The notes: generated by a model not told the origin, from the letters alone. 64,000 bases of DNA from Candidatus Multivorans sp. (GCA_965203495.1 CBDBDB010000007.1:324959-388958), one strand, 5' to 3'; shown: positions 24,060-38,519, counted from the stretch's first letter. Made by a program: numbers and translations.

Positions 24060-24180
24060 ATCGTAGCACGGTGTTGGGACAGCGGGGATGTCCCGTCGGT
24101 TGTTGAACTTTGGGAGTAGGGTGGCGGCTCTCCGGCCCGATGAGCGGGCCGGTCTCAGCGAAAGAAAGGAGACGCCACCC

Positions 24181-25119
24181 ATGGCCAATCATCGCAGTCG
24201 GGAAGGGAATCGGCAAGAGAGAAGGAGCACTCCGAGCAGTCCGTCGTCGGGATCGGGGCTTGGTCTGTTGGAGTCATTGCCCTCGTTGGTCAACGGTCTG
24301 TCGAGCTTTCAGGAGCTGTGCGTCGAGACAGGCCGGTCTACGTTGGCCCGGTTGATGGAGGAGGAGCGGGAGTCGCGGTGCGGCGCGAAGGGTCGTCACC
24401 AGGATGCTCGTTCGGTGTGGCGTGCGGGCAGTGCTCCGAGCCAAGTGACGCTGGGCGGGGCCCGGATCGAGATTCAGCGTCTGCGGGTACGGGGTCCGGA
24501 GGGCGAGGTGCGTCTCGAGTCGTTCGAGTGGGCGGCGTCTCGCGACGCGATGGACCGTCACACGATGGAAGCGATTGCGTCGGGCGTGTCGACGCGGAAC
24601 TACCTGCGGTCGCTGGACACGGCGGCCGCGGGTTCGGACCGTCGTTCGGCATCGCGGAGTTCGGTGTCTCGGCGCTTCAAGGCGCTGTCGGCGCGGCAGA
24701 TGGAGAAGTTCCTGTCGTCGTCGCTGGAAGACGAGGACATCCGCGTGGTGTGCGTGGACGCGAAGTACATCGGTGGCCACTGCATTCTGATCGCCTTGGG
24801 CGTTTCGTCGTCCGGTCACAAGCGGGTTCTTGGCCTTCGCGAGGGTTCGACGGAGAACACGGCGGTGGTCCGCGCTCTTCTCGCCGACCTGGTGGAGCGG
24901 GGCCTCTCGACGGCGAAGCCGTTGCTGTTCGTCATCGACGGCAGCAAGGCCCTGCGCCGCGCAATCAAGGAGGTCTTCGGCGACGCCGCGACGGTGCAGC
25001 GCTGCCAGGTCCACAAGGCCCGGAACGTCGAAGAGCATCTGCCCGAAGAGAGGCGAGCCTCGATTCGCCGGGCGCTCCGCAAGGCCTGGGACAGCAAATC
25101 CGCCAAGACGGCCTTGAGG
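24181..25119 (+). pseudogene. IS256-family transposase, 5' part of copy 1 (interrupted after ...KSAKTAL)
   Basis: The sequence matches the full-length copy at 25218-26501. The reading frame runs into the left end of the inserted IS copy 2. Confidence 0.8.
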
Positions 25120-26558
25120 GGGGATGTCCCGCCGGCTGTTGAACTTTGGGAGTAGGGTGGCGGCTCACCCGGCCCGGTGAGCGGGCCGGTTCCAGCGAAA
25201 GAAAGGAGACGCCACCCATGGCGAATCATGGCAGTCGGGAAGGGAATCGGCAAGAGAGAAGGAGCAGCTCGTCGTCGGGGTCGGGGCTTGGTCTGTTGGA
25301 GGCATCGTCCTCGTTGTTCGACGGTCTGTCGAGCTTTCAGGATCTGTGCGTTGAGACAGGCCGTTCTGCCTTGGCGCAGTTGATGGAGAAGGAGCGGGAG
25401 TTGCGGTGCGGGGCGAAGGGTCGTCACCAGGATGCTCGTTCGGTGTGGCGCGCGGGCAGCGCTCCGAGTCAGGTGACGCTGGGCGGCGCCCGGATGGAGA
25501 TTCAGCGTCTGCGGATACGGGGTCCGGAGGGCGAGGTGCGTCTCGAGTCGTTCGAGTGGGCGTCGTCTCGCGACGCGATGGACCGTCACACGATGGAAGC
25601 GATCGCGTCGGGCGTGTCGACGCGGAACTACCTGCGGTCGCTGGACACGGCGGCCGCGGGTTCGGACCGTCGTTCGGCTTCCAGGAGTTCGGTGTCTCGT
25701 CGCTTCAAGGCGCTGTCGATGCGGCAGATGGAGAAGTTCCTGTCGTCGTCGCTGGAAGACGAGGACATCCGCGTGTTGTGCGTGGACGCGAAGTACATCG
25801 GTGGCCACTGCATTCTGATCGCCTTGGGCGTTTCGTCGTCCGGTCACAAGCGGGTTCTTGGCCTTCGCGAGGGTTCGACGGAGAACACGGCGGTGGTCCG
25901 CGCTCTTCTCGCCGACCTGGTGGAGCGGGGCCTTTCGACGGCGAAGCCGTTGCTGTTCGTCATCGACGGCAGCAAGGCCCTGCGCCGCGCGATCAGGGAG
26001 GTCTTCGGCGACGCCGCGACGGTGCAGCGCTGCCAGGTCCACAAGGCCCGGAACGTCGAGGAACACCTGCCCGAAGAGAAGCGAGCCTCGATTCGCCGGG
26101 CGCTCCGCAAGGCCTGGGACAGCAAATCCGCCAAGACGGCCTTGAGGCGTCTGCGGCAGCTCGCCAGTCATCTCGAGCGGGAGCACCCCGGCGCAGCGGC
26201 CTCCCTACGGGAAGGCATGGAGGAGACCGTCACCGTGCTCGAACTCGGCCTCGCCGGAGCTCTCCAGAAGACCATGCGCAGCACCAATCCGATCGAGAGC
26301 CTCAACAGCTCCGTCGGGCGCTACACCCGCAACGTCAAGCGCTGGCGGGGCGGCGCCATGATCCAGCGCTGGGTCGCCGCAGCCCTCGTCGATGCGCAAT
26401 CACGCTTCCACCGCGTCAGAGGCTACCGAGACATGCCAGAACTCATCCGTGCTCTCGAACGACGAGCACGTCACGTTGACCACCAAACCAAGGCCGCTTA
26501 ACATTCTTCAACACACACGAGCCGCCATCCGAAGTTCAACAGAAAACGGGACAATCCC
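25120..26558 (+). mobile_element. IS256-family IS, copy 2, nested inside copy 1; 8-bp TSD CCTTGAGG
   Basis: CCTTGAGG is at 25112-25119 and at 26559-26566. Both terminal inverted repeats are present. The transposase gene is intact. Confidence 0.8.
25218..26501 (+). CDS. IS256-family (Mutator-like) transposase, intact
   Basis: The 427-aa product carries the DDE-region blocks VLCVDAKYIGGH, FVIDGSKALRRAI and QRCQVHKARNV. SD GAAAGGAGA precedes the ATG. Confidence 0.85.
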   Translation: MANHGSREGNRQERRSSSSSGSGLGLLEASSSLFDGLSSFQDLCVETGRSALAQLMEKERELRCGAKGRHQDARSVWRAGSAPSQVTLGGARMEIQRLRIRGPEGEVRLESFEWASSRDAMDRHTMEAIASGVSTRNYLRSLDTAAAGSDRRSASRSSVSRRFKALSMRQMEKFLSSSLEDEDIRVLCVDAKYIGGHCILIALGVSSSGHKRVLGLREGSTENTAVVRALLADLVERGLSTAKPLLFVIDGSKALRRAIREVFGDAATVQRCQVHKARNVEEHLPEEKRASIRRALRKAWDSKSAKTALRRLRQLASHLEREHPGAAASLREGMEETVTVLELGLAGALQKTMRSTNPIESLNSSVGRYTRNVKRWRGGAMIQRWVAAALVDAQSRFHRVRGYRDMPELIRALERRARHVDHQTKAA

Positions 26559-26566
26559 CCTTGAGG

Positions 26567-26920
26567 CGTCTGCGGCAGATCGCCAGTCATCTGGAGCGGG
26601 AGCACCCCGGCGCAGCGGCCTCCCTCCGGGAAGGCATGGAGGAGACCGTCACCGTGCTCGAACTCGGCCTCGCCGGAGCTCTCCAGAAGACCATGCGCAG
26701 CACCAATCCGATCGAGAGCCTCAACAGCTCCGTCGGGCGCTACACCCGCAACGTCAAGCGCTGGCGGGGCGGCTCCATGATCCAGCGCTGGGTCGCTGCC
26801 GCTCTCATCGATGCTCAATCACGCTTCCACCGCGTCAGAGGCTACCGAGACATGCCCAAACTCATCCGCGCCCTCGAACGACGAGCAGGGCACGTTGACC
26901 ACCAAACCAAGGCCGCTTAA
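26567..26920 (+). pseudogene. IS256 transposase 3' part of copy 1 (continues after the nested insertion)
   Basis: The reading frame resumes at RRLRQIASHLEREHP...HQTKAA. It is nearly identical to the copy 2 C-terminus. Confidence 0.8.
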
Positions 26921-27142
26921 CATTCATCAACACACACGAGCCGCCATCCGAAGTTCAACAGAAAACGGGACAATCCCTGGGACAGCTGCTCAGGATGGTG
27001 TCGAGACATGAGTTCGAGAGAGACGCGCGGACGCTTGACACGGGGAGTTCTGCAAATGACGGCTGGAAATGCACCCAGCGCTTGACGCCGTGGAGCGGAA
27101 GTTCAGGCGCCGACTGTCCGTGGGTCGCGGTCGGCTGTCTGG

Positions 27143-27184: not shown

Positions 27185-27640
27185 TCAAGGAATCCGGTCA
27201 TAGCTCTGCAAGTGGCCATCGAGCGCCCAGATGCGGACGCGGCGGCTCCTGTGCCGACTGCACTCGGTCTCCCAAGCCTTGATGATCGACAGATCGCTCA
27301 GGTCCGGGCCTCTCTTGGCGTGATCCGGAAAGTCGTCAAGCCATTCTTCGAGTTGTCGTTCGTCCGGGAACCGAATCGGCACCCAAGGGGCCTCTCCCTT
27401 CAGAGCCTCACGAATGCTGTTGCGAAACACCTCGGCATACCGTCGCCGGAGCCCGCCGCTCCGGAGATCGGCGATGTGATCGCCAGTTTCAAAGATCGCT
27501 GCCAGTGGCAGAAGAAGGCTGGCACGAGCATCAAGCAATGCGCCGAACTCCGCAAGGACCTTTTCGCGGTCCTGATTGAACGATGGAACGTCGAGCACGT
27601 TGAGCAGAACGCTCGTGTCCACGATAACGACCGCCGACAT
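27185..27640 (-). CDS. PIN-like domain protein (putative nuclease effector), partner of upstream ATPase
   Basis: The N-terminal strand VVIVDTSVLLNVLD is present. Acidic positions E51, D97/D100 and D138 (IWALDGHL) are spaced like the PIN catalytic residues. It starts 6 bp after the ATPase stop on the same strand. Confidence 0.5.
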   Translation of the reverse strand: MSAVVIVDTSVLLNVLDVPSFNQDREKVLAEFGALLDARASLLLPLAAIFETGDHIADLRSGGLRRRYAEVFRNSIREALKGEAPWVPIRFPDERQLEEWLDDFPDHAKRGPDLSDLSIIKAWETECSRHRSRRVRIWALDGHLQSYDRIP

Positions 27641-27646
27641 CGCCGA

Positions 27647-28945
27647 CTAGTCCGCCTGCGTCCTGATCTTGTTCAGCCAGGCGTGGGCGCGTCGGCGGCG
27701 TTCTTCCGGCGTCGGCCGGAGCTTCACGATTCGATCAAGAATTCCCTGCGTCAGGAGATGGCCGACGGCGCCTTGGGCGATGAGTTCGGGATAGTCCGGG
27801 AGGTCGGCAAGACGCTGGAGGCAACTGGCGCCGGTCGTCGGGTCCCGGTAGCAGAACACGACGTTCGGCACTGCGTCGTTCGGCAATGCGTCGAGCAGGG
27901 CGGGGTTGTGGCTGCTGATGAGCACTCGGAGGTTGCGCCGTTGGGCAACCGTGGAGAGTCGGTCCAGCATCAACTCCGCGCGGCTTGGGTGCACGCCGTT
28001 GTCGATCTCCTCGATCACGACGATGCTGCCCTCGGGCGCGGACAGTACCGCGGCGGCGATGCCGAGAACGCGGAGAGTTCCATCGGACAGCAAGGCTGCG
28101 TCGTACTCCGTCCGCCTCCCGCCAAAGGTCTCGGTCAGCTTGACCATGGCCTCGTTGCGCGGAGTCTCGATGAAGCCGATGTTCGTGATGTCCTGCTCCG
28201 GCAGGGCCTTGACGAAGTGGAGCAGCTCGGCCTCGGTATGGGTCTCCTGACAGAGGTTGAACAACACGCCGGAGAGATTCGTTCCGTGGCCGCTCAGCGT
28301 CCGCTCGGTCTTGAAGCTGTAGGCTCGCATGGCTGACGGTTGCGGGTCGAGGAACACGATGTTCGACAGCCAGCTCTGATACCGGGTTGTCACTTCGGGG
28401 ATCACCCGTTGCGCCAGTTTCTGGCGTTGCGCGAATGGCGCCGAACTCTGGAGCTGGAGCAGCACGGCCATCTGGTCGGTGCATGTGACCTGAGGCTTCA
28501 TGCCGCCGCGCGCGAAGTTGTTGTACGCGACGCGAATGTCTCCGCCAGACTCTTGTGAAGATACGACCTCGAAGAGCGGGACGCGTTCGGACGGACCGTC
28601 AAGTCGTTCTTCCGTGATGTGGAGATCCTCGTCGGCTCGTCGCTCGAGCGTCACGGAGTATCGATTCCATTTCGGTTCCGTCGTCATGCACGACAGCGAG
28701 AACCCCTGGCGGCCTCCGTGGCCGAGATCGTTCACCGTTCCCCGGATGGCGTGAGCGCCGTCCTGAAGCGCGTATCGAATGGAACCGAGCTTGTTGCCCT
28801 GGGCGAGCCAGGAGAGGAAACGGAGAGCCTCGACGGCGTTGCTCTTGCCGGAGGCGTTCGCTCCGACCAGAACCGTCAGCGGCCCGAGCTTCAGCGTCGC
28901 TTCCTCGTAGCTCTTGAAGTCCTTTATCGTGAAGCTGGACAGCAT
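27647..28945 (-). CDS. ABC/SMC-type AAA15/AAA21-like ATPase (defence-associated ATPase family)
   Basis: Walker A VLVGANASGKSN is present. The ABC signature-like LSDGTLRVL is present. Walker B IVVIEEIDNGVHP and the H-loop LISSHNPALL are present. SD GGGAGGAGG precedes the ATG. Confidence 0.75.
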   Translation of the reverse strand: MLSSFTIKDFKSYEEATLKLGPLTVLVGANASGKSNAVEALRFLSWLAQGNKLGSIRYALQDGAHAIRGTVNDLGHGGRQGFSLSCMTTEPKWNRYSVTLERRADEDLHITEERLDGPSERVPLFEVVSSQESGGDIRVAYNNFARGGMKPQVTCTDQMAVLLQLQSSAPFAQRQKLAQRVIPEVTTRYQSWLSNIVFLDPQPSAMRAYSFKTERTLSGHGTNLSGVLFNLCQETHTEAELLHFVKALPEQDITNIGFIETPRNEAMVKLTETFGGRRTEYDAALLSDGTLRVLGIAAAVLSAPEGSIVVIEEIDNGVHPSRAELMLDRLSTVAQRRNLRVLISSHNPALLDALPNDAVPNVVFCYRDPTTGASCLQRLADLPDYPELIAQGAVGHLLTQGILDRIVKLRPTPEERRRRAHAWLNKIRTQAD

Positions 28946-29058: not shown

Positions 29059-31950
29059 TCACACTCGGAACACCTTCATGACTTCGTCGCCCAGGTGATT
29101 GATCACCTTGACCGCGATGCGCCCGGAGACGGGCTTCGGGAAGGGGCGGGAGGTGTCGCTGTGCAGCGTGGCCCATGCGTCGGCGTCGATCTCGGCCTTC
29201 AAGGTGGTCCTGAGCGACTTGTAGGGGTCGCCGGCGCCGAGGAAGTAGGCCTGGCGGACGAAGAAGCTTTCTTCGTTGTAGTCGGTGTCCACGAACCAGC
29301 AGGCGATGCCTTCGGGTCCGTCGCTGCGGACTTCGCCGGAGGATGGGTCGAAGACGTCGACGCCCTTGATCCTGACCCGGCGCCAGTCCGGCTCGCCGTC
29401 GGGACCGGTTGCGGTCTCGATGTCGATGTCGGGCTCGCCGAAGATGACGAACAGGTTGGCGGCGTTCGTCTTCCTGAAGTCGTCGGCCATGTGCAGGTCG
29501 GCGTTCATCCGCGCCTTGAGGATGGGGACGCGGCCGAGCTTCGTGAACTCGGACACGTGGACGTCGAAGTTGAAGGCGCAGGCGATCAGGACGTCGAATC
29601 CGGCGTCGGCCGCCTCGCGCGCGGCGCTGACCAGGTCCGGCCGGGAGACGGTTCCGAACTCCGGACCGATGAAGACGCCGGCGCGCTGTTCCTTGCCCTC
29701 GCCGTCGACGTAGCGGCCCTCGGCGCAGACCAGCTCGCCGGGCCGCGGTTCCAGCGACGAAAACGCGATCCGGCCGGCCTTGCTCGCCTGCTGAACGCCG
29801 GCGGTGCGCAGGTTCTCGAGAATCACGTGGCCGAACTCGCTGCGGCACACGTCGGCGCCCCCGTCGTCACTCGCCCGCGGCTCGGCCACCAGAAGTTCGT
29901 CCCGCTCGTCCAAGGCGGCCGGGCGATGCGGCGAAACGCTCTCGACGGTAAAGGGTCCGGCGACGCGGACTTTCCGGTTGTCCTGGAAGGGCTTGTCGTG
30001 GAGGTGTTCGTAGTCGGCCTTCGCGGCGATGCAGGCGTCGATCTCGCTCTGGCGGGCGATCCGGGCCTGCCAGAAGCGCTCGTGCGCCTCGCGCGCGGCC
30101 CGGTTCCAGTCGTCTTCCGGCTCTCGGGGGACTTCCCACTCCAGGAAGCCGTTTGCGGGCGCCGGTTCGCCGGAGGGCAGGTCGACCGTGCTTCCCGCCG
30201 GCGCCTCGAAATCGATCTGCTGGCCCTTGCGTCCGCCGGCCTGGACGACGAACGGCGCGGCGTGACCCCGCAGGGCGCGGTTGAGGTCCGACAGGGCGTT
30301 CTCGACCGCCGGCTGCAGGCGCTCGTGGATCACGTCGATCTCGGCGTTGTTGGCGATGGACTTGAGCGTGACGTGGGGGACGCGCTCGACCACGAAGCCG
30401 TGCCGGATGTCGTTGTACGTGGGCGCCTCCGACGGCGCCTTGCGGGCGAGCGCGGCCTCCTTGAGCTGGCCCTCGCGGCTGTCGGCGAGCAGGTACCAGG
30501 GGTAGCGGGCGCCCATGATGCGGGCCCGGGCCAGGGCGAGCGCCACCCGGGACGTGTCGATCGTGATCCAGCGGCGGCCCCATTGCTCGGCGACGTAGGC
30601 CGTCGTGCCGGAACCGCAGGTCGGGTCGAGCACCAGGTCGCCGGGGTCCGTCGTCATGAGGATGCAGCGCTGGATTACCTTGGGGAGAGTCTGTACAACG
30701 TAGGTCTTGTTCGCCGCATAGCCGGCTGTGCCGGTGTCGTTCCACTGGTTCGTGATCCGAACCACGGGGAAGTCATCCAGGAATCGAAGATACGCAGGTG
30801 TATTCCCCTGATAGCCCAAACGTGCCGCCTTGCTCAAACGCTCTATTCCGTCGGCGGTCGTCTTCCAGTGCATTCCCGGTTTGATGGAAAATATCCTTCC
30901 CATGAGTGCAACCGAGTGGGTTTTGGCCGCAGCGCCTTGCGAGGTCAGATCAGCTGACCTCGCAAGGCGCTGCGGCCAAAATCGCGGGAAATTGCCACTC
31001 AGATTGTGTAGCTCCCGATACGACGTCGCCCCTTGTAGACCGGCCTCTTTCTTGTTCGTCAACAGCCGGTACTTCAAGGCAGAGGACTTCCCGTACCAGA
31101 GCAGATAGTCGGACACGTTAGCCAGGCGCATGGCAGCGAAGCCAGACGTCTTGGAGAACGACACTTGAGAGACAAAGTTCGCCTCTCCAAACACCTCGTC
31201 CATCAACGCCCGCACGCGGTGCACGTTCTCGTCGCCGATCTGCACGAACACGGATCCGCTCTCGGTCAGCAGGTCCCGCGCCGCGGTCAGTCGGTCGCGC
31301 AGATAGGTCAGGTAGGAGTGAATGCCGTCCCGCCAGGTGTCCCGGAAGGCCTTGACCTGCTCCGGTTCCCGGGTGACGTGGTCCGCCTTGCCGTCCTTCA
31401 CGTCCCGGCTGGTCGTGGACCACTGGAAGTTCGAGTTGAACCGGATGCCGTAGGGCGGGTCGATGTAGATGGTCTGCACCTTGCCGCGCAGGCCCTCGCG
31501 TTCGGCCAGCGACGCCATGACCTGCAGGGAATCGCCCAGCACCATGCGGTTCGACCAGTTCGCGTCGTGCCGGTAGAACTCCGTTCTGGCGTCGTCGTCC
31601 GGCAGGCCGTTGAAGTCGGCGAAGAGGTCGGGCTGGACGGCCCGGTCTCCGGCCTTCCGTTCGCGGGCCCGGCGGCTGGTCCGCTCCAGATCGTCGATCA
31701 GCACCTTGGGGTGCACCTTCTCCTGGATGAAAAGGGGCGGCGTCGGCACGACGAGGTCGGACCAGTCCTCCATGTCCTTGCCGCGCCAGATCAGCTGCGG
31801 GTCGAGGTCCGGGTTGCGCCGCTCGTACGCGACCCGGATCGGGTCCCGGTCGTACGCGTGCATCACCGGCTCGTACTCGGCGGTGGGAATGTTGCGCCGC
31901 GTCGCTTCGCGGTGGATCAGCGTCTCGACCTTCCGGGCTTTCTTCGCCAT
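29059..31950 (-). CDS. mod: Type III restriction-modification methyltransferase (Mod), N6-adenine beta-class
   Basis: Motif IV IYIDPPYG lies upstream of motif I VLDPTCGSGTTAYVA (beta-class order). A central variable region lies between them. The start is set at MAKKARKVETL. Confidence 0.85.
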   Translation of the reverse strand: MAKKARKVETLIHREATRRNIPTAEYEPVMHAYDRDPIRVAYERRNPDLDPQLIWRGKDMEDWSDLVVPTPPLFIQEKVHPKVLIDDLERTSRRARERKAGDRAVQPDLFADFNGLPDDDARTEFYRHDANWSNRMVLGDSLQVMASLAEREGLRGKVQTIYIDPPYGIRFNSNFQWSTTSRDVKDGKADHVTREPEQVKAFRDTWRDGIHSYLTYLRDRLTAARDLLTESGSVFVQIGDENVHRVRALMDEVFGEANFVSQVSFSKTSGFAAMRLANVSDYLLWYGKSSALKYRLLTNKKEAGLQGATSYRELHNLSGNFPRFWPQRLARSADLTSQGAAAKTHSVALMGRIFSIKPGMHWKTTADGIERLSKAARLGYQGNTPAYLRFLDDFPVVRITNQWNDTGTAGYAANKTYVVQTLPKVIQRCILMTTDPGDLVLDPTCGSGTTAYVAEQWGRRWITIDTSRVALALARARIMGARYPWYLLADSREGQLKEAALARKAPSEAPTYNDIRHGFVVERVPHVTLKSIANNAEIDVIHERLQPAVENALSDLNRALRGHAAPFVVQAGGRKGQQIDFEAPAGSTVDLPSGEPAPANGFLEWEVPREPEDDWNRAAREAHERFWQARIARQSEIDACIAAKADYEHLHDKPFQDNRKVRVAGPFTVESVSPHRPAALDERDELLVAEPRASDDGGADVCRSEFGHVILENLRTAGVQQASKAGRIAFSSLEPRPGELVCAEGRYVDGEGKEQRAGVFIGPEFGTVSRPDLVSAAREAADAGFDVLIACAFNFDVHVSEFTKLGRVPILKARMNADLHMADDFRKTNAANLFVIFGEPDIDIETATGPDGEPDWRRVRIKGVDVFDPSSGEVRSDGPEGIACWFVDTDYNEESFFVRQAYFLGAGDPYKSLRTTLKAEIDADAWATLHSDTSRPFPKPVSGRIAVKVINHLGDEVMKVFRV
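30922..30980. repeat. Perfect 27-bp inverted repeat with 5-nt loop (TTTGGCCGCAGCGCCTTGCGAGGTCAG-ATCAG-CTGACCTCGCAAGGCGCTGCGGCCAAA) inside mod coding sequence
   Basis: It was read directly from the sequence. It sits in a roughly 300-bp low-GC segment (30830-31130) corresponding to the Mod target-recognition region. The frame is maintained. Confidence 0.9.
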
Positions 31951-31954
31951 GTCG

Positions 31955-32335
31955 CTAGCGGTCCTCCGCGTCGGGGATGTGAGCGATGCCGAGCTCCTCG
32001 GCGAGCGCACGGAGTTTCCGGTCCGCCGTCCACAGTGTCGCGTTTCCGTCCGCCAGAACCGCGCCGAGGAGGTTGGCGTCCATGTAGCCGATGCCGCGTC
32101 CCATCCAGGAGTGTCGTTCGATCAGAGCGAGGAGGTCGTCGCCAGAGAGTGTCGCGAGTCGCGGGAAACCCCTCATTCGCTCGAGGAAGCCATCGCGCTC
32201 GGGCAGGTGGCCACATGCCAGTTCGCCGATGACCATGGCATGGGATAGCACCTCCCGGGCCTCCACGCGGTCCCGCAACTCCCGGCTGGGGGCACGCACG
32301 TTGTCAATCCAGATCGACGTGTCCACCAGGATCAT
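31955..32335 (-). CDS. vapC: VapC-type PIN-domain toxin
   Basis: The N-terminus MILVDTSIWID is classic VapC. The protein is 126 aa. The ATG overlaps the res TGA (ATGA). Confidence 0.8.
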   Translation of the reverse strand: MILVDTSIWIDNVRAPSRELRDRVEAREVLSHAMVIGELACGHLPERDGFLERMRGFPRLATLSGDDLLALIERHSWMGRGIGYMDANLLGAVLADGNATLWTADRKLRALAEELGIAHIPDAEDR

Positions 32336-35300
32336 CCCGCTTCCGCGCTCCGGCGTCGCGGAATGTACTTGGCGTCGGGCATCGAGCCGCCGATGGCGCC
32401 AAGGAACCGCGCGACCTCGCTCGCCCGCTCTTCGCTGGCGAGTTCGTCCAGGGCGGTCGCGATCCCGGCGTCTAGGTCGTGTTCCATTTCAGACGGCTCC
32501 CGCAGTTCAAGGTACGCCCAACGACCATGGCGGCCGACCGCGTTGACCGCGGGAATCCAGCAGGTTTCCATGGCTTCCGCCTTCGCCCGGGATTCTTCTC
32601 CTCGCATGCCCTTGACCTCCACCACGACGTGCAGGGGTTCCTCCTTGCCGAGGCCGTGGTCGAGGTCGACGATGAAGTCGGGGGCGTAGCGGCGGGGGGC
32701 GCCGCCGAACCGGTACGGCACGTCGAAGCCGAGGTTCCGGTTCTTCACCCAGGCCAGCACGCGCGGGTGCGCGTCGAGAACGCGGCAGAACTCGCCTTCC
32801 CACGTGCTGTCGAGAATCGCCCAGTTCAGATGGCAGCGACGGCCGGTCCGGTAGCGCTGCGTGCGCGACGTCGTGAAGTGCACGCTGCGGGTCGTGCCGA
32901 CCGGGTTCCAGGGATCGAGCAAGGCCCTGACCGGCTGCTTGGCCGACCGGCGCCGCAGTTCGGCGCGGGTGACGGCGGCCGCAATCTTCTCGCAGGCGCG
33001 GTCGGCGAGCTCCGCCATCATCAGCTGCGCCGGAACCGTGTTTCCCTTGCACGTCAGGCAGGCATCGAGCCATTCGCCGGCGATGCGCTTCAACTGGCCG
33101 AACAGGTGCAGGTCCGGATCTTCGTTCGCGTCGCGCCAGTGCTTGAACAGCAGCCGCTTCGTCAACTCGTAGAGCACGGTGGACCGGCGGACCCCGTTCA
33201 GCCGCTCGGGGCCGAGGTCGTGGCCTTCGCCGATGATGCCCTGATTGTGCGTGATCGTCGGTCCCACGAGTTCCGGCGTCAGCTCGAGCGCCGAGTCCTC
33301 CGTGAACGCGGCGGAGAGGCGGTCGTTCGGCAGATCGACGCGGTAGCCGGCCACCCGCGGGAAGCGGATCTCCGCGTCGTCCCGCTCCGGCGAGAGGGCC
33401 TGGACTTGCACCGTCTCGGCGGGCGGCTGCGGCGGCGCCGCGACGGGCCTGGCGGTGAAGTCGAAGGGCACGCCGAACACGTCCGCGTACTCGACGTCGA
33501 ACAGGCCGCCGTCGTTCAGTTCGTAGGACTGCCGGCGCAGGGAGCGGCCGATCACCTGTTCGCAGAGCAGCTGCGTCCCGAAGGCCCGCAGGCCGAGGAT
33601 GTGAGTGACATTGCTGGCGTCCCAGCCTTCGGTCAGCATGGCGACGGAGACGACGCAGCGGATGGCGCCGCCCAGCCGGCCGGCCTTGCCGACGGTGTTC
33701 ATCGCTTCGCGCAGCAGGTCCTGGTCCGACAGGTTCTCGGCTTGCCGGCGATCTCCCGTCCGTTCGACGATCTCCCGGCGGAAACGCTCGATCTCGTCCG
33801 CGGCGGCGGCGCGGAAGCTCCGGTCGAGCGCGTCGCCGGATTCGAGCTGCCGGCTGTCGATGAGCAGCGTGCGGGGTCTGGGCAGTGGCGTGCCGTCCGC
33901 GTCGAAGTTGCGGAACAGCGGCAGGCGACCGTTGTGGAAGGTCCCCGCGCCGTTCCCGGACCCGCGTGGGAAGCCCGCGATGTAATCGTGGACCAGCTTC
34001 GACGCGGCGGTGTTGTTGCACACGACGATGAAGCAGGGCGGCGTCTCGATGCCGGCCTCCTCCCACAGGGTGAACGTCTTTTCGTAGTGTCCGTAGAGAG
34101 CCTCCAAGGCCGTCTGCAGCTCGGTCGGCAGCGACATCGGGTCGGCGGCCGCGCCGCTTGCGCCGCCGCCGCGGCCCTGCTTCGGCATCTTCCCGCCGAT
34201 GCGCTCCCAGAGGTTCCGGAACATCGGCATCTCGGCGCCGGGGACGTTGTCCACCACCGGCACGCGCGGGACCTTGACGATGCCGCACTCGATCGCGTCC
34301 ATCAGGGAGAAGTCGCTGACGGTCCACGGGAAGAGCGTGCCCTCCGCGTAGCCCGAGCCGCGCAGGAAGAACGGCGTGGCCGACAGGTCGATCACCCGCT
34401 TGATTCCCAGTCTGCGCGCGGTCGCCTCCAGACCGGAGATCCACACGTGCGCCGCCTCCCGGTTGCGCTTCGCCTCGTGGCGGTCGTCGCCGGTCAGCCG
34501 CCCTTCCTCGTCTTCGCCGGCCTTCTCGCGATAGCAGTGGTGCGCCTCGTCGTTCAGGACGAGGATGCCCCTCATCGCCATCAGTTCCGGCATCGCGCGG
34601 GCCAGCATCTCGCCTTCCGTTTCGCGGACTGCGAGGTCCGGGCCGCGGCCCTGGAGCAGGGCGCGGCTCCCCTTGGCCAGCTTCATCGTCTCGCGGCGCC
34701 CGAACGCGTGGTAGTTGACGATCACGATCCTCGCCCTGTCGATGTCGCGCAGCATGTCCGGGGGCGCGAGTTCGCGGCTGGCGTAGTAGCTGTCGGGGTC
34801 GTTCGGCTGGAGCACCCGCAGGCGGTCGCGGATGGTGATGCCCGGCGCGACGACGAGAAAGCCGCGAGTGAACCGCCGGCTCGCGGGGCGGCGAACGGCG
34901 TTCACCGTCTGCCAGGCGATGAGCATGGCCATGACGGTCGTCTTGCCGGCGCCGGTCGCGAGCTTGAGCGCTAGGCGCGAGAGGCCCGGGTTCGCCTGCT
35001 CGCTGGCCGCTTCGATCCGCTCCAGGAAGCCGCGGCCGCGCTTGCCCATGGCGGGCGCGACTTCGGTCAGCCAGATGGCGGTCTCGACGGCTTCGACCTG
35101 GCAGAAGAACGGGCGGATGCCGCTGAACCGATGGTGGCGCCAGTGCTTGAGCAGACGGGCTGTTTCGGGCGTCACGCGCCACTGCGACTCCGGCAGCGCG
35201 CGCCAGGCGGCGATCGCCCGGCGCAGGCCGCCGATCAGCTCGGTCAGCTCGTACTGCTGACCGCCTGGCGTCTCGAGCGCGTCGATGTCCGCGTCCAGGG

Positions 35301-35478
35301 TGAGTCGCCGCTGCGTCTTGCGGCCGGTCTTTCTCGCCCTGGGAATCGGCGAGACGAAGGAAGCCGGGCGACGCCCGGGGGCGATTCTCTCAGTCGGCTG
35401 GCGGTTCTCGTCCAGCACCCAGTGCCGGCCCGGCAGTTCGTAGGGCGAATTGAGGATAGGGGACCGGTGGAACGTCAT
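32332..35478 (-). CDS. res: Type III restriction endonuclease Res subunit (helicase + PD-(D/E)xK) with C-terminal extension
   Basis: DEAH-box LVLNDEAHHC is present. Walker A GAGKTTVM is present. The C-terminal nuclease motif YAPDFIVDL...VVVEVKG is present. The start is set at MTFHRSPILNSPYEL, and the upstream ORF extension is judged spurious. Confidence 0.8.
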   Translation of the reverse strand: MTFHRSPILNSPYELPGRHWVLDENRQPTERIAPGRRPASFVSPIPRARKTGRKTQRRLTLDADIDALETPGGQQYELTELIGGLRRAIAAWRALPESQWRVTPETARLLKHWRHHRFSGIRPFFCQVEAVETAIWLTEVAPAMGKRGRGFLERIEAASEQANPGLSRLALKLATGAGKTTVMAMLIAWQTVNAVRRPASRRFTRGFLVVAPGITIRDRLRVLQPNDPDSYYASRELAPPDMLRDIDRARIVIVNYHAFGRRETMKLAKGSRALLQGRGPDLAVRETEGEMLARAMPELMAMRGILVLNDEAHHCYREKAGEDEEGRLTGDDRHEAKRNREAAHVWISGLEATARRLGIKRVIDLSATPFFLRGSGYAEGTLFPWTVSDFSLMDAIECGIVKVPRVPVVDNVPGAEMPMFRNLWERIGGKMPKQGRGGGASGAAADPMSLPTELQTALEALYGHYEKTFTLWEEAGIETPPCFIVVCNNTAASKLVHDYIAGFPRGSGNGAGTFHNGRLPLFRNFDADGTPLPRPRTLLIDSRQLESGDALDRSFRAAAADEIERFRREIVERTGDRRQAENLSDQDLLREAMNTVGKAGRLGGAIRCVVSVAMLTEGWDASNVTHILGLRAFGTQLLCEQVIGRSLRRQSYELNDGGLFDVEYADVFGVPFDFTARPVAAPPQPPAETVQVQALSPERDDAEIRFPRVAGYRVDLPNDRLSAAFTEDSALELTPELVGPTITHNQGIIGEGHDLGPERLNGVRRSTVLYELTKRLLFKHWRDANEDPDLHLFGQLKRIAGEWLDACLTCKGNTVPAQLMMAELADRACEKIAAAVTRAELRRRSAKQPVRALLDPWNPVGTTRSVHFTTSRTQRYRTGRRCHLNWAILDSTWEGEFCRVLDAHPRVLAWVKNRNLGFDVPYRFGGAPRRYAPDFIVDLDHGLGKEEPLHVVVEVKGMRGEESRAKAEAMETCWIPAVNAVGRHGRWAYLELREPSEMEHDLDAGIATALDELASEERASEVARFLGAIGGSMPDAKYIPRRRSAEAG
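32335..32487 (-). other. In-frame 51-codon RHH/antitoxin-like tail of res (MEHDLDAGIATALDELASEERASEVARFLGAI...), possible internally initiated VapB-like antitoxin
   Basis: No separate antitoxin ORF lies upstream of vapC. The tail has an RHH-like pattern. An internal ATG is preceded by GGGAG. Confidence 0.3.
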
Positions 35479-35559: not shown

Positions 35560-35960
35560 TCCCTCGTCTCGGGTGTGCGTGGCGTGGTGGCGATCGGCGA
35601 GTTCGCGTCTCGCCTGACGCAGAGGCAGTTGTCCGCGGTGAGCGCGTTCTTCAGTCCGAGTCGGAAGCGGTACGTCGCGCCGTCTCGGACGTCGATCCAC
35701 CGGATACTGACGGCGCTTGATCCAGAGGTTGTCGACCGGGCGGTTCGGGGTTTCGCCGCCCAGTCGCGGCGCCCCCGCGGCGCGTTGGCAGTTGACCGCA
35801 AGTCGGTCGACGGCGCGCACTGGCGCCATCTCCGCGGACCCGGTTCAAAAGCCGATCTCAGGGCCGCGCACGGGACGCCCCGCGAAGCGGTGGGCAAGCT
35901 CAGCCCGCGAGCGCCCCCGGGCGCGAACCTATACGAATTTCTGAAGCTTCCAACGGTTTA
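35560..35960 (+). pseudogene. Possible ISAs1-family transposase N-terminal fragment
   Basis: The translation ...SPSRKRYVAPSRTSIHRILTAL...ALAVDRKSVDGAHW loosely resembles the ISAs1 N-terminal region (AIDGKTLRGS block). The frame continues from the off-frame ORF 35131-35961. Confidence 0.25.
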
Positions 35961-36028
35961 GCAGCCCGTGGCAAAAGTGGATTCGGCCCGGAGTGCCACT
36001 GCTGCTTCGAGGCTGAGTCTGGGCAGCG

Positions 36029-37072
36029 CTACGCGACGCAAAGTTGGAAGCCGAGGCGATGTGCGCGCCAAGAGGCGCAGATCGACTGCATCAGCCCGTC
36101 GAATCGGGCTGTGAACGCTGCAAGCAAGCCAGTCTGGGCGCCCAGAGTTGCCGTGACACGGCCCTGCAGCGATCGTGGCGTGCCGACTCCCGCGAGGCTC
36201 CTCATCAGGAGACCGAGATTGAAGCCGCAGGAATGAATGTAAAGGCGCTTGAGCGCGTTGTCGCGGCCGCGCAGATGCAAGCGCCGCATGCCGCCGGTCT
36301 CGAACTGGTGAGCGAAGGGACGTTCGACGCGCTCGCCGCGCCGGCGCTGCAGCCGCTTGCCCCGATTGCCGCGGACCCGCCGACGGTTCGCGTACACGAT
36401 GGCTTGCAAGTCCTTCTTGCCTGTCCAACGACGACGACCACGGTCCGGCTCCGCGATGTAGCTGCGAAGCTCCAACTCGTCGATGGAGGCGAGAACGTCG
36501 TTGCTGTGGTAGCCCTTGTCCGCAATCACTTCCTCGATCACCGACGAATCGCCGACTGCCGACTCCACCTGCTCGAACGTCTCCTCCAACGTCTCGTGGA
36601 CCGACTCCGTGTCTCCCTTGGCGCCGCCATGCAGCGTCACACCCAGAATGGCCCCGCTCTCCAGGTCCACCGCCTGCTCCGCCTTGTACGCGAGGTGCGT
36701 GCGGCCATCCTTCATCTTCGTGACCTCGGCATCCGGATCGTGAGGATTCTCCCACTCCTCGTTCGACAGCTTCTTCTTCCGCTTGCGGTCGAAACGAGCC
36801 AACTCCGCACGAGTCAGCGTCGCCAAGCCCGAAGCCTCTGCCAAGCCACGCACGAACTCCTCGTAGCCAGAACCCGTATCCCGACGAACGATGCTGCGCA
36901 GCGCAGCGTTCGCCTCCAGCGTCGTCGCGTCCACGCCCACTGTCTTCCCCGATACCAGACCCGACTCCGCCAAGCGCTCAAGAACCCAGCTGAACACCTT
37001 GCCGTGAGTCTCCAGATCGATCAGACGACGAGTGCGAGAAATCGTCGAATGATCCGGCGAACCCTCCGTCAC
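36029..37072 (-). pseudogene. IS5/IS1182-family DDE transposase, C-terminal 347 aa (N-terminus severed by IS256)
   Basis: Hallmark blocks DKGYHSNDV and ERPFAHQFETGGMRRLHLRGRDNALKRLYIHSCGFNLGLLMRSL are present. The frame begins exactly at the IS256 junction. Confidence 0.75.
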
Positions 37073-38519
37073 GGGATTGTCCCGTTTTCTGTTGAACTTC
37101 GGATGGCGGCTCGTGTGTGTTGATGAATGTTAAGCGGCCTTGGTTTGGTGGTCAACGTGCCCTGCTCGTCGTTCGAGGGCGCGGATGAGTTTGGGCATGT
37201 CTCGGTAGCCTCTGACGCGGTGGAAGCGTGATTGAGCATCGATGAGAGCGGCAGCGACCCAGCGCTGGATCATGGAGCCGCCCCGCCAGCGCTTGACGTT
37301 GCGGGTGTAGCGCCCGACGGAGCTGTTGAGGCTCTCGATCGGATTGGTGCTGCGCATGGTCTTCTGGAGAGCTCCGGCGAGGCCGAGTTCGAGCACGGTG
37401 ACGGTCTCCTCCATGCCTTCCCGGAGGGAGGCCGCTGCGCCGGGGTGCTCCCGCTCCAGATGACTGGCGATCTGCCGCAGACGCCTCAAGGCCGTCTTGG
37501 CGGATTTGCTGTCCCAGGCCTTGCGGAGCGCCCGGCGAATCGAGGCTCGCCTCTCTTCGGGCAGATGCTCTTCGACGTTCCGGGCCTTGTGGACCTGGCA
37601 GCGCTGCACCGTCGCGGCGTCGCCGAAGACCTCCTTGATTGCGCGGCGCAGGGCCTTGCTGCCGTCGATGACGAACAGCAACGGCTTCGCCGTCGAGAGG
37701 CCCCGCTCCACCAGGTCGGCGAGAAGAGCGCGGACCACCGCCGTGTTCTCCGTCGAACCCTCGCGAAGGCCAAGAACCCGCTTGTGACCGGACGACGAAA
37801 CGCCCAAGGCGATCAGAATGCAGTGGCCACCGATGTACTTCGCGTCCACGCACACCACGCGGATGTCCTCGTCTTCCAGCGACGACGACAGGAACTTCTC
37901 CATCTGCCGCGCCGACAGCGCCTTGAAGCGCCGAGACACCGAACTCCGCGATGCCGAACGACGGTCCGAACCCGCGGCCGCCGTGTCCAGCGACCGCAGG
38001 TAGTTCCGCGTCGACACGCCCGACGCAATCGCTTCCATCGTGTGACGGTCCATCGCGTCGCGAGACGCCGCCCACTCGAACGACTCGAGACGCACCTCGC
38101 CCTCCGGACCCCGTACCCGCAGACGCTGAATCTCGATCCGGGCCCCGCCCAGCGTCACTTGGCTCGGAGCACTGCCCGCACGCCACACCGAACGAGCATC
38201 CTGGTGACGACCCTTCGCGCCGCACCGCGACTCCCGCTCCTCCTCCATCAACCGGGCCAACGTAGACCGGCCTGTCTCGACGCACAGCTCCTGAAAGCTC
38301 GACAGACCGTTGACCAACGAGGGCAATGACTCCAACAGACCAAGCCCCGATCCCGACGACGGACTGCTCGGAGTGCTCCTTCTCTCTTGCCGATTCCCTT
38401 CCCGACTGCGATGATTGGCCATGGGTGGCGTCTCCTTTCTTTCGCTGAGACCGGCCCGCTCATCGGGCCGGAGAGCCGCCACCCTACTCCCAAAGTTCAA
38501 CAACCGACGGGACATCCCC
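37073..38519 (-). mobile_element. IS256-family IS, copy 3 (inverted relative to copies 1/2); 9-bp TSD CTCCGTCAC
   Basis: CTCCGTCAC is at 37064-37072 and at 38520-38528. The terminal inverted repeats are GGGATTGTCCC... and ...GGGACATCCCC. Confidence 0.8.
37130..38422 (-). CDS. IS256-family transposase, intact (copy 3)
   Basis: Its N-terminal 300 aa are identical to the copy 1 fragments. Its C-terminus matches the copy 1 3' part. Confidence 0.85.
   Translation of the reverse strand: MANHRSREGNRQERRSTPSSPSSGSGLGLLESLPSLVNGLSSFQELCVETGRSTLARLMEEERESRCGAKGRHQDARSVWRAGSAPSQVTLGGARIEIQRLRVRGPEGEVRLESFEWAASRDAMDRHTMEAIASGVSTRNYLRSLDTAAAGSDRRSASRSSVSRRFKALSARQMEKFLSSSLEDEDIRVVCVDAKYIGGHCILIALGVSSSGHKRVLGLREGSTENTAVVRALLADLVERGLSTAKPLLFVIDGSKALRRAIKEVFGDAATVQRCQVHKARNVEEHLPEERRASIRRALRKAWDSKSAKTALRRLRQIASHLEREHPGAAASLREGMEETVTVLELGLAGALQKTMRSTNPIESLNSSVGRYTRNVKRWRGGSMIQRWVAAALIDAQSRFHRVRGYRDMPKLIRALERRAGHVDHQTKAA

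What the first reader, a model, noticed from the sequence alone, without database searches (positions are those of the whole stretch)
29059..35478. Type III R-M in inverted order with a VapC toxin gene between res and mod
Canonical type III loci are mod then res. Here the transcription order is res, vapC, mod. The res TGA and vapC ATG overlap (ATGA). Only 4 bp separate the vapC stop from the mod start. A toxin gene translationally coupled inside an R-M operon suggests an addiction or stabilisation layer on the R-M system, or an R-M unit assembled from modules.
Basis: partly seen in the sequence, partly recalled or inferred. Interest (0 to 1): 0.6.

Follow-up and report, generated by a model that had tools for sequence, protein, structure and literature searches.

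The report
Restriction enzyme carrying a grafted antitoxin tail
A bacterial restriction-modification operon has a VapC-type RNase toxin gene between its two genes, there is no separate antitoxin gene, and the toxin-binding tail of the missing antitoxin is fused to the end of the restriction enzyme, so the toxin is probably kept silent by the restriction enzyme itself.

Summary
On the minus strand lie res (35478-32332), a 126-aa PIN gene (32335-31955) and mod (31950-29059), with an ATGA stop/start overlap and a 4-nt spacer.

The "inverted order" is not an anomaly. Res belongs to the NCBIfam BPTD_3080 family, and res came before mod in all 78 species-representative loci where both genes were found. 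The res-mod gap is a variable cargo slot holding MNT/HepT, Fic, Schlafen, Bro-N, ParE-type pairs and other genes.

The new point concerns the antitoxin. There is no vapB gene. The last ~30 residues of Res (..ARFLGAIGGSMPDAKYIPRRR..) are homologous to the C-terminal toxin-binding segment of PF09957-type VapB (consensus RESARRLARLGGSEPQLxxIPRRR).
- The tail occurs only in Res proteins followed by this PIN or its remnant.
- PIN never occurs without the tail.
- In decayed loci PIN is lost first.

Two other antitoxin-to-Res fusions exist in the same family: Res::MNT followed by HepT, and Res with a different RHH-antitoxin tail followed by a second PIN type.

Best reading: a VapC toxin neutralised by, and tethered to, Res. 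This makes cell viability depend on intact Res, either as addiction or as a PrrC-like guardian. No biochemistry was possible.

This is a new variant of a known kind.

The parts
32332..35478 (-). res: BPTD_3080-family restriction subunit (1048 aa). It has an SF2 helicase/ATPase and a C-terminal PD-(D/E)xK nuclease. Walker A TGAGKT lies at 34939-34956, DEAH at 34537-34551, PD at 32668-32682 and EVK at 32608-32622.
   Evidence: NCBIfam NF046055 1276 bits (cut-off 800) and Pfam ResIII. The motifs are invariant in alignment A1.
32335..32436 (-). VapB-derived tail: the last ~34 residues of Res (SEERASEVARFLGAIGGSMPDAKYIPRRRSAEAG). It lies beyond the BPTD_3080 profile and is homologous to the C-terminal toxin-binding segment of PF09957-type VapB antitoxins. 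The RHH DNA-binding domain is absent.
   Evidence: The NCBIfam profile ends at Res residue 1004. The VapB consensus is RESARRLARLGGSEPQLxxIPRRR. A VapB C-terminal HMM hits only Res tails in 34,188 six-frame fragments; the window's full-sequence E-value is 0.03 in that large set and 9.4e-4 in the window-only set. The residues conserved in VapB are also conserved in 46 Res tails.
32332..32335 (-). ATGA junction: the res stop codon TGA overlaps the PIN start codon ATG. This is the same 4-nt overlap seen at canonical vapB/vapC junctions.
31955..32335 (-). PIN-domain VapC-type toxin gene (126 aa). The catalytic acidic residues D5, E38, D86 and D105 are intact.
   Evidence: Pfam PIN 22.1 bits. AF2 pLDDT 94.3. 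Foldseek best hits are VapC15 (4chg) and VapC11 (6a7v). A profile search of the PDB finds VapC11/VapC15.
29059..31950 (-). mod: N6/N4 DNA methyltransferase (963 aa). DPPY lies at 31447-31461 and the FxGxG-type motif DPTCGSGTT at 30601-30627. The start codon is 4 nt after the PIN stop, and a GGAGGA Shine-Dalgarno-like sequence lies inside the PIN 3' end.
   Evidence: Pfam N6_N4_Mtase 112.6 bits. PADLOC MTase_III PDLC03632 1243.7 bits. Sequence.

Best explanation
The locus is a two-subunit ATP-dependent R-M system of the BPTD_3080 family, type III-like, with res before mod as is normal for this family.

Proposed origin (inferred): the variable res-mod gap once received a vapBC toxin-antitoxin module. 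A later deletion removed the RHH DNA-binding half of vapB and fused its C-terminal toxin-binding segment in frame to the 3' end of res. The old vapB/vapC ATGA junction was kept.

Proposed working (inferred): the VapC RNase is made from the R-M transcript by translational coupling. It is held inactive by binding the VapB-derived tail of Res. Res is therefore both the restriction subunit and the only antidote. Anything that removes, truncates or degrades Res, or sequesters its tail, frees the RNase and stops growth. That could include operon loss, a nonsense or frameshift mutation anywhere in res, proteolysis, or a phage anti-restriction factor.

The most likely consequences are stabilisation of an intact res gene and/or a PrrC-like second line of defence.

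Shown here: gene order, conservation of the arrangement, tail homology, tail-PIN co-occurrence, the asymmetry of decay, and the parallel fusions.
Inferred: physical binding, toxicity, the trigger and the RNA target.
For: 1. There is no vapB-like gene and no second PIN in the 64-kb window. The only VapB-like hit is the Res tail.

2. The closest PINs outside R-M loci (51-52% identity) sit in classic VapB(PF09957)-VapC pairs with the same 4-nt overlap. On plasmids, all relatives are annotated VapB/VapC pairs.

3. The VapB C-terminal consensus RESARRLARLGGSEPQLxxIPRRR aligns with the Res tails. The L050 tail reads RESARRLALLGGSEPQIEPIPRR. An HMM of the VapB C-terminus ranks 19 Res tails above all of 34,188 six-frame fragments, with E-values from 2.8e-11 to 0.085; the first noise hit is at 0.36.

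4. The residues near-invariant in VapB (L, GG, S/T, P, I/V-P, RRR) are near-invariant in 46 Res tails, 39 of them distinct, while the positions between them vary.

5. Co-occurrence. Of 80 species-representative loci, 7 have the tail. Three of these have an intact PIN and 4 have a PIN N-terminal remnant directly after the Res stop. None of the 73 tail-less loci has this PIN. All metagenomic res-PIN-mod loci carry the tail. PIN never occurs without the tail, but the tail does occur without PIN. That is the order of loss expected if the tail is the antidote.

6. In the nearest solved complex, VapBC11, residues 1-40 of VapB form the RHH domain. Residues 41-63 wrap the toxin up to the active site, and peptides from this region inhibit the tRNase (PMC6265470).

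7. Convergence in the same Res family. Res::MNT fusions (14 of the top 120 Res clusters) are followed by HepT. Res with the tail of a different RHH antitoxin is followed by a second PIN type and no antitoxin gene. That second TA pair occurs unfused in the L050 gap.

8. No promoter-like or terminator-like site lies on the coding strand inside the operon.
Against: - No experiment and no complex model supports binding.
- The window's own tail scores weakly against the VapB HMM: 14.8 bits, E 0.03 in the large set and 9.4e-4 in the window-only set. The homology rests on the family of tails.
- A trans-acting VapB elsewhere in the genome cannot be excluded from 64 kb.
- A tail fused to a large stable protein may not behave like a labile antitoxin, so the trigger is unknown.
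- If PIN translation is strictly coupled to Res translation, a truncating res mutation might also lower toxin synthesis. That would weaken the 'res-integrity policing' idea.
- Tail-bearing Res proteins are scattered in the Res tree. The history (single origin with losses, repeated gain, or cassette exchange) is unresolved.
- PIN scores just under Pfam's gathering threshold.
Confidence: 0.68

Rival explanations
1. Selfish cargo with an accidental fusion. A vapBC module landed in the res-mod gap, as many other TA modules do. A chance deletion fused the antitoxin tail to res. The arrangement persists only because losing the tail would be lethal. It gives no benefit to the R-M system or the host.
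For: The gap holds many unrelated TA modules and even an IS element. PIN has been lost or replaced in 4 of 7 tail-bearing species representatives. 73 of 80 relatives work without it.
Against: Three different antitoxin types are fused to the same end of the same protein family, which argues for selection rather than a single accident. The res-PIN-mod unit has spread across several phyla with Res 74-86% identical. About 45 of the top 120 Res clusters carry the tail.
Confidence: 0.22
2. PIN is a working nuclease subunit of the restriction complex. It is recruited through the tail to cut phage RNA or DNA during restriction, rather than being a latent toxin.
For: The tail would tether PIN to the translocating Res. 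HEPN RNase domains are known to be fused to restriction subunits (PMC3710099).
Against: In VapBC complexes the homologous antitoxin segment occludes the active site (PMC6265470), so tail-bound PIN should be inactive. Most family members, including a 77%-identical Res (L019), lack PIN, so it is not needed for restriction.
Confidence: 0.06
3. The tail resemblance is coincidental or the tail is non-functional. PIN would then be neutralised by an unlinked antitoxin, or would not be toxic at all.
For: The segment is short (~25 aa). The window's own HMM score is modest. Only 64 kb of the genome was seen.
Against: The L050 tail nearly matches the VapB consensus, with E 2.8e-11. All 19 top HMM hits are Res tails. 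The tail co-occurs strictly with PIN or its relic. The residues conserved in VapB are the ones conserved in the tails. Tails degrade where PIN is gone: IPRRK in L055, IPRRL in L050, and an upstream stop in L051.
Confidence: 0.04

Closest known systems
PrrC anticodon nuclease embedded in the type Ic R-M locus EcoprrI (an 'RM guardian')
   Same: An RNase toxin gene sits inside an R-M operon. The toxin is thought to be kept latent by association with the R-M proteins and released when restriction is disabled (PMC12707154; PMC3710099).
   Different: PrrC is an ABC-ATPase plus HEPN protein in a type I system. How it is silenced by EcoprrI has no recognisable antitoxin module. Here the toxin is a small VapC-type PIN in a type III-like system, and the silencing element is a recognisable antitoxin tail covalently joined to Res. 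No trigger is known.
Canonical VapBC type II toxin-antitoxin pairs with a PF09957 RHH-type VapB (for example M. tuberculosis VapBC11, PDB 6a7v)
   Same: The PIN fold and catalytic residues match. The 4-nt stop/start overlap matches. The C-terminal antitoxin segment with the GG(S/T)xP...(I/V)PRRR motif matches.
   Different: There is no free antitoxin gene and no RHH domain, so no autoregulation at a vapBC operator. The tail is part of a 1048-aa restriction enzyme, and expression comes from the R-M operon.
Genes embedded in defence operons ('guilt by embedding', bioRxiv 10.1101/2024.01.29.577857) and PIN genes coupled to type I R-M subunits (PMC5499597)
   Same: Variable accessory or defence genes are nested between the core genes of an R-M system. 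The cargo seen in this family (Fic, Schlafen/AlbA_2, MNT-HepT, YhcG, Bro-N) resembles what is reported for type I loci.
   Different: Those surveys covered Hachiman, BREX, DISARM and type I R-M, not this type III-like family. PMC5499597 states that a direct TA-RM interaction had not been shown. The antitoxin-to-Res fusion was not mentioned in the passages read.
HEPN toxin domains fused to restriction or helicase subunits of R-M systems (Anantharaman et al. 2013, PMC3710099)
   Same: These are convergent fusions linking an RNase-toxin system to the restriction subunit rather than the methylase. They were interpreted by analogy with PrrC.
   Different: There the toxin domain itself is fused. Here the antitoxin part is fused (a VapB tail, another RHH-antitoxin tail, or a whole MNT domain), and the toxin stays a separate polypeptide.
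Classical type III R-M (EcoP1I/EcoP15I)
   Same: Two subunits: a beta-class N6/N4 methyltransferase, and a Res with SF2 helicase motifs and a C-terminal PD-(D/E)xK nuclease.
   Different: The gene order is res then mod. Res scores only 18 bits against the NCBIfam type III endonuclease model, whose cut-off is 564. Both proteins are larger. The recognition and cleavage mode is untested.

Membership tests
BPTD_3080 family restriction endonuclease (NCBIfam NF046055) | Full-length match above the curated cut-off | tested here: met
   1276.4 bits against a cut-off of 800. Residues 5-1004 match profile positions 2-968 of 970.
BPTD_3080 family restriction endonuclease (NCBIfam NF046055) | Partner site-specific DNA methyltransferase immediately downstream on the same strand | tested here: met
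   78 of 78 loci with both genes have res before mod on one strand. The RefSeq plasmid NZ_CP091148 shows the same.
Classical type III R-M (EcoP15I-like) | Res with SF2 helicase/ATPase motifs plus a PD-(D/E)xK nuclease; Mod of the N6_N4 methyltransferase class | tested here: met
   Pfam ResIII, Walker A, DEAH and PD...EVK motifs. Pfam N6_N4_Mtase and PADLOC MTase_III 1243.7 bits.
Classical type III R-M (EcoP15I-like) | Res homologous at family level to EcoP15I-type Res (NCBIfam PRK15483) | tested here: not met
   18.2 bits against a cut-off of 564. PADLOC REase_III gives only local hits of 34.5 and 14.2 bits.
Classical type III R-M (EcoP15I-like) | Operon order mod then res | tested here: not met
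   The order is res then mod here and in all 78 relatives.
Classical type III R-M (EcoP15I-like) | Hemimethylation of an asymmetric site; cleavage needs two inversely oriented unmodified sites and ATP | not testable with these tools
   This needs methylome sequencing and biochemistry.
VapC (PIN-domain) type II toxin | PIN fold with the four conserved acidic residues | tested here: met
   AF2 pLDDT 94.3. Foldseek hits to VapC15 and VapC11 with TM 0.74-0.75. D5, E38, D86 and D105 are invariant.
VapC (PIN-domain) type II toxin | Score above the curated family thresholds | tested here: not met
   Pfam PIN 22.1 bits against 23.6. NCBIfam TA_toxin_VapC 20.4 bits against 80. Most close relatives carry a precomputed PF01850 hit.
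VapC (PIN-domain) type II toxin | Separate cognate antitoxin gene immediately upstream | tested here: not met
   The upstream gene is res. There is no VapB-like ORF in the window. The antitoxin's tail is fused to Res instead.
VapC (PIN-domain) type II toxin | Toxic RNase activity neutralised by the antitoxin | not testable with these tools
   This needs expression and rescue assays.
VapB antitoxin (Pfam PF09957) | N-terminal ribbon-helix-helix DNA-binding domain | tested here: not met
   Nine Res tails, including the window's, give no PF09957 hit. The control VapB scores 57 bits over residues 1-44.
VapB antitoxin (Pfam PF09957) | C-terminal toxin-binding segment (L..GG[ST]xP....[IV]PRRR) | tested here: met
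   Custom HMM from 120 VapBs. Conservation pattern in 46 tails.
PrrC/EcoprrI-type RM guardian | Toxin gene embedded within the R-M operon | tested here: met
PrrC/EcoprrI-type RM guardian | Toxin is an ABC-ATPase/HEPN anticodon nuclease homologous to PrrC | tested here: not met
   The protein is a 126-aa PIN and has no PADLOC hit.
PrrC/EcoprrI-type RM guardian | Toxin kept latent by the R-M proteins and activated by a phage anti-restriction factor | not testable with these tools
   Latency through the Res tail is inferred from homology only.

The most novel reading that the evidence does not exclude
Grafting an antitoxin onto the C-terminus of the restriction subunit is a selected, convergently evolved design in this R-M family. 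Three unrelated antitoxin types show it: the VapB tail, a second RHH-antitoxin tail, and a whole MNT domain. Because the antidote is the last element of the Res polypeptide, any truncating mutation, loss, degradation or phage-mediated attack on Res unleashes an RNase. The R-M system would then police the integrity of its own restriction gene and/or fire abortive infection when restriction is subverted. If so, this would be a directly testable molecular link between a TA module and an R-M enzyme.
Probability: 0.4. Interest if true: 0.8.

Novelty: new variant of a known kind. Interest (0 to 1): 0.66.

Why it matters
Toxin and abortive-infection genes nested in R-M operons are well known, with PrrC as the classic case. 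How the R-M proteins silence them is mostly unknown. A 2017 survey of PIN domains noted that no direct TA-RM interaction had been shown (PMC5499597).

Here the sequence itself suggests the wiring: the toxin-binding peptide of the antitoxin is part of the restriction enzyme. That gives a small, defined interface, about 30 residues with an RRR motif, to mutate and test.

It could also explain how an R-M system resists the common evolutionary loss of its restriction gene. Parallel fusions with MNT/HepT and a second PIN type suggest a general principle rather than a one-off.

The work also shows that this widespread, uncharacterised type III-like family has a res-mod cargo slot similar to the one in type I systems. 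That slot is a possible source of new defence genes.

Tried and rejected
- Pfam scan of nine Res tails found no VapB hit. The PF09957 model covers only the RHH half, residues 1-44, so I built a custom C-terminal HMM instead.
There is therefore no complex model and no Res model.
- A single-sequence search of the PDB with PIN found nothing. The profile search did find relatives.
- Context look-ups for P0001 and P0080 returned nothing on record. The cluster look-up gave no names or accessions.
- Naive longest-ORF picking in the res-mod gaps selected spurious antisense ORFs in high-GC loci. I replaced it with cross-locus clustering.
- A first Res tree run timed out and was redone with a faster distance method.
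- MANTIS/Gao_RL and Pez-Hachiman were checked as possible matches and set aside. They have different gene sets and a different logic (four genes; transcriptional control).
- 'Inverted order as an anomaly' was rejected after the 78/78 result.
- 'L019 Res::MNT is an assembly error' was rejected after finding 14 independent clusters and a locus on a 2.83-Mb contig whose record name suggests it is circular.


Full report
**1. Observation.** The minus strand carries three tightly packed genes.
- res: 35478..32332, 1048 aa.
- A PIN gene: 32335..31955, 126 aa.
- mod: 31950..29059, 963 aa.

The junctions read gggATGAtc (res TGA overlapping the PIN ATG) and TAGcgacATG (4-nt spacer). All three genes have the high third-position G+C typical of real genes in this ~69% G+C sequence: 0.91, 0.82 and 0.89. 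No sigma-70-like promoter and no terminator-like hairpin lies on the coding strand between 28.5 and 36.5 kb. That is weak evidence, because the scan is generic.

**2. What the R-M system is.**
- Res is a full-length member of NCBIfam NF046055, 'BPTD_3080 family restriction endonuclease' (1276 bits, cut-off 800).
- It carries Walker A (TGAGKT), DEAH and PD...EVK motifs.
- Against the classical type III Res model it scores only 18 bits, where the cut-off is 564.
- Mod is an N6_N4 methyltransferase (Pfam 112.6 bits) and matches PADLOC MTase_III PDLC03632 at 1243.7 bits.
- No paper in the searchable library mentions BPTD_3080.

I scanned one genome per GTDB species with a Res alignment. At least 579 stretches encoded a relative, and the best 80 loci were kept. 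tblastn found Mod in 78 of them, always downstream of Res on the same strand. The RefSeq plasmid NZ_CP091148 shows the same res-then-mod order. The 'inverted order' is therefore the norm for this family and not a feature of this locus.

**3. The res-mod gap is a cargo slot.** In those loci the distance from the Res stop to the Mod start ranges from about 0 to 5.5 kb. I clustered the gap ORFs across loci and scanned them against Pfam. The recurrent cargo is:
- MNT + HepT pairs (about 7 loci)
- A small-protein + DUF2283 pair
- Schlafen AlbA_2/HATPase_c_4 proteins (6 loci)
- Fic/DOC (4 loci)
- Bro-N proteins (5 loci)
- A DUF1828 pair
- Unstab_antitox + ParE-like pairs
- YhcG PDDEXK + 23S-IVP
- An IS1595 transposase
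- DUF3883, on a Sphingomonas plasmid

Many of these cargo genes start with a 4-nt overlap on the Res stop. From my own knowledge, this repertoire resembles the genes nested in type I R-M operons. The 'embedding' survey covered Hachiman, BREX, DISARM and type I only (bioRxiv 10.1101/2024.01.29.577857). The PIN classification paper reports PINs coupled to type I subunits only (PMC5499597).

**4. The PIN gene.**
- Pfam PIN scores 22.1 bits, just under the 23.6 threshold.
- The AlphaFold model built from 51 relatives is confident (pLDDT 94.3).
- Its best structural matches are M. tuberculosis VapC15 (4chg) and VapC11 (6a7v), TM 0.74-0.75.
- A profile search of the PDB finds the same two proteins.
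- D5, E38, D86 and D105 are invariant.

Among 2025 homologues, context look-ups split by identity.
- PINs 81%, 70%, 62%, 54% and 53% identical to the window's PIN lie between a ~1045-aa Res and a ~980-aa Mod. They sit in different neighbourhoods in Acidobacteriota and Gammaproteobacteria, always with the 4-nt overlap.
- PINs 51-52% identical lie in ordinary VapB(PF09957)-VapC pairs with the same overlap.
- A neighbour-joining tree places the R-M-linked PINs in one clade (P0001-P0077). The VapB-paired ones fall in another clade, and the L080 PIN branches deeply.
- In PLSDB plasmids all relatives are below 50% identity, and those listed with annotation are called VapC next to VapB.

**5. Where the antitoxin went.** The window has no VapB-like ORF and no second PIN. 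The BPTD_3080 profile ends at Res residue 1004, which leaves a 44-residue extension. Printing the Res C-termini next to a cognate VapB showed the match:

VapB: ..QRESARRLAQLGGTEPQLRDIVRRREP
Res: ..SEERASEVARFLGAIGGSMPDAKYIPRRRSAEAG

- The consensus of 120 VapB relatives is RESARRLARLGGSEPQLxxIPRRR.
- One Res tail (L050) reads RESARRLALLGGSEPQIEPIPRR.
- I built a 29-column HMM of the VapB C-terminus and searched 34,188 six-frame fragments (2.5 million residues) from the window and all loci then held except the four canonical vapBC loci L014-L017. It returned 19 Res tails as its top 19 hits, with E-values from 2.8e-11 to 0.085. The window scored 0.03, and the first unrelated fragment 0.36.
- In the window alone the tail is the only hit (E 9.4e-4).
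- Pfam cannot see this segment, because PF09957 covers only the RHH half, residues 1-44.
- Among the best 120 Res clusters, about 45 carry the tail.
- In 46 tails (39 distinct), the positions near-invariant in VapB are also near-invariant: L 40, G 45, G 45, S/T 46, P 45, I/V 45, P 45, R 46, R 45, R 44. The positions between them vary.

In the closest solved complex, VapBC11, residues 1-40 of VapB form the RHH domain. Residues 41-63 wrap the toxin from a lateral site to the active site, and peptides from that region inhibit the tRNase (PMC6265470). The piece retained on Res is therefore the piece expected to be sufficient for neutralisation.

**6. Co-occurrence and order of decay.** Of the 80 species-representative loci, 7 have the tail.
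- Three (L018, L020, L080) have an intact PIN.
- In four the PIN has been destroyed or replaced, but a remnant follows the Res stop:
  - L051: VILVDTSVRIDHFR..., followed by an IS1595 insertion.
  - L055: MILADTSIRIEN..., followed by an Unstab_antitox/ParE-like pair.
  - L042 and L050: only MI(I/L)V remains.
- None of the 73 tail-less loci has this PIN.
- Counting intact PINs only (3 of 7 against 0 of 73), my own Fisher calculation gives p of about 4e-4. This ignores phylogenetic non-independence.

Where PIN is gone, the tails are starting to decay: IPRRK, IPRRL, and an upstream stop in L051. Tail without PIN exists, but PIN without tail does not. That is the order of loss expected if the tail is the antidote.

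**7. The same solution has arisen with other toxins.**
- L019, nested among the tail+PIN Res proteins in the tree, has Res running in frame into a complete MNT nucleotidyltransferase domain, followed by HepT.
- This is not an assembly error. 14 of the top 120 Res clusters are 1105-1125 aa long and carry Pfam NTP_transf_2/Polbeta.
- L104, on a 2.83-Mb contig whose record name suggests it is circular, shows Res::MNT (1105 aa), then HepT (8-nt overlap), then Mod.
- Other loci carry the same MNT and HepT genes unfused.
- Res clusters P0312 and P0314 end in a different tail (for example ..RDLQGKLRVGRQSTRDEVNER), and P0318 ends in a related but more divergent one that gave no BLAST hit. The P0312 and P0314 tails match the C-terminus of a free RHH antitoxin found in the L050 gap (..QDLSGKVRIGRKPTREEMNAR). 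The pairwise E-values are 6e-8 and 3e-4, in a very small search space.
- In L103 that Res is followed directly by a 139-aa PIN, 51% identical to the PIN of the L050 pair and unrelated at BLAST level to the window's PIN. Mod follows, and there is no antitoxin gene.

Three unrelated antitoxin moieties have therefore been joined to the same end of the same protein family, and for two of them the unfused embedded form also exists.

**8. Mechanism.**

Shown: homology, architecture, conservation, co-occurrence and parallel fusions.

Inferred: a vapBC module entered the gap. A deletion then fused the 3' part of vapB to res, which removed the RHH domain and any operator control and kept the ATGA junction. 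VapC is now made from the R-M transcript and is bound and blocked by the Res tail.

The consequence I think most likely is that viability becomes conditional on an intact, present Res. The antidote is the very last part of the polypeptide, so any upstream nonsense or frameshift mutation, deletion of the operon, proteolysis of Res, or a phage factor that sequesters or destroys Res would free the RNase. That could serve two roles:
- Addiction or stabilisation of the restriction gene, the part of an R-M system most easily lost.
- A PrrC-like back-up when restriction is subverted (PMC12707154; PMC3710099).

I cannot separate these two roles. Nor can I exclude a purely selfish, locked-in fusion, though the triple convergence argues against that.

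Caveats:
- There is no binding or toxicity data.
- No complex model was possible.
- A trans-acting antitoxin elsewhere in the genome is not excluded.
- Strict translational coupling could blunt the 'policing' effect.
- Tail-bearing Res proteins are scattered in the Res tree, so the history is open.

**9. Comparison with what is known.**
- The concept of toxins nested in R-M operons and silenced by them is established for PrrC.
- It has been proposed for many HEPN proteins, some of which are fused as toxin domains to restriction subunits (PMC3710099).
- PINs next to type I subunits were noted in 2017, with the remark that no direct TA-RM interaction had been shown (PMC5499597).
- What I did not find in the searchable literature is an embedded-cargo slot in this type III-like family, or an antitoxin rather than a toxin grafted onto a restriction subunit.

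I therefore rate it a new variant of a known kind.

**10. Context in the window.**
- Directly downstream of mod on the same strand lies a two-gene PADLOC candidate defence system, PDC-M07: A at 28945..27647 (622.6 bits) and B at 27640..27185 (182.2 bits).
- The ~10-kb block holding PDC-M07, mod, PIN, res and a DDE_Tnp_1 transposase (37072..36029) is bracketed by inverted copies of one IS256/Mutator-family element.
  - The right copy lies at 37073-38520.
  - The left copy, at 24084-26977, is itself interrupted by a 96%-identical copy.
  - The outer arms are 100% identical.
- G+C drops from about 0.70 to 0.63-0.65 at the flanks.

The R-M/toxin unit thus sits in a recently mobile, composite-transposon-like defence islet.

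Noticed in passing
window 27185-28945 (-): A two-gene PADLOC phage-defence candidate, PDC-M07, lies directly downstream of mod on the same strand. PDC-M07A is an ABC-type ATPase of 432 aa (622.6 bits; Pfam AAA_21/AAA_15). PDC-M07B is 151 aa (182.2 bits). A similar AAA_15/AAA_21 gene precedes res in L010.
   Followed up: partly
window 24084-26977 and 37073-38520: Inverted copies of one IS256/Mutator-family element bracket the ~10-kb defence block. The outer arms are 100% identical over 1036 nt and 419 nt. The left copy is split by a nested copy that is 96% identical. The structure looks like a recently active composite transposon.
   Followed up: partly
window 36029-37072 (-): A further DDE_Tnp_1 (IS4/IS5-type) transposase ORF lies between res and the right-hand IS256-like copy. 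An overlapping 265-aa ORF (35958-36755) has no Pfam or PADLOC hit.
   Followed up: no
L019:7001-10673; L104:5001-8682: In close relatives, Res is fused in frame to a complete MNT nucleotidyltransferase (antitoxin) domain and is followed by the HepT toxin. 14 of the top 120 Res clusters have this architecture.
   Followed up: yes
L103:5001-8562; L050:10150-10927: This is a second, unrelated antitoxin-tail graft. The Res in L103 ends in the C-terminal tail of an RHH antitoxin and is followed by a different 139-aa PIN. In L050 the same TA pair is present unfused in the gap, behind a Res that still carries a decaying VapB-type tail.
   Followed up: yes
L018-L097, between the Res stop and the Mod start: The res-mod gap of the BPTD_3080 family is a hotspot for variable cargo: MNT/HepT, a DUF2283 pair, Schlafen AlbA_2, Fic, Bro-N, DUF1828, ParE-type pairs, YhcG + 23S-IVP, and IS1595. 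Several gap proteins have no Pfam hit, for example L041:9934-10332, L032:10090-10563 and L051:10532-11167.
   Followed up: partly
P0472, P0474, P0396, P0487 (distant Res representatives): Some distant BPTD_3080-like proteins carry long C-terminal extensions of 160-650 aa. One contains a GIVDSG-type motif that may indicate a subtilisin-like peptidase. One appears to have an intein-like insertion in the helicase domain. None of these was analysed.
   Followed up: no
L020:7001-7693: A ~231-codon stretch matching the Res N-terminus lies upstream of what looks like the full-length, tail-bearing Res ORF, which suggests a partial duplication or rearrangement in that MAG.
   Followed up: no
window 41233-45861 (+): A very large ORF (1542 aa) has fibronectin type III and MG2 (alpha-2-macroglobulin-like) domain hits. 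It follows a 701-aa ORF with no hits. It is unrelated to the finding.
   Followed up: no
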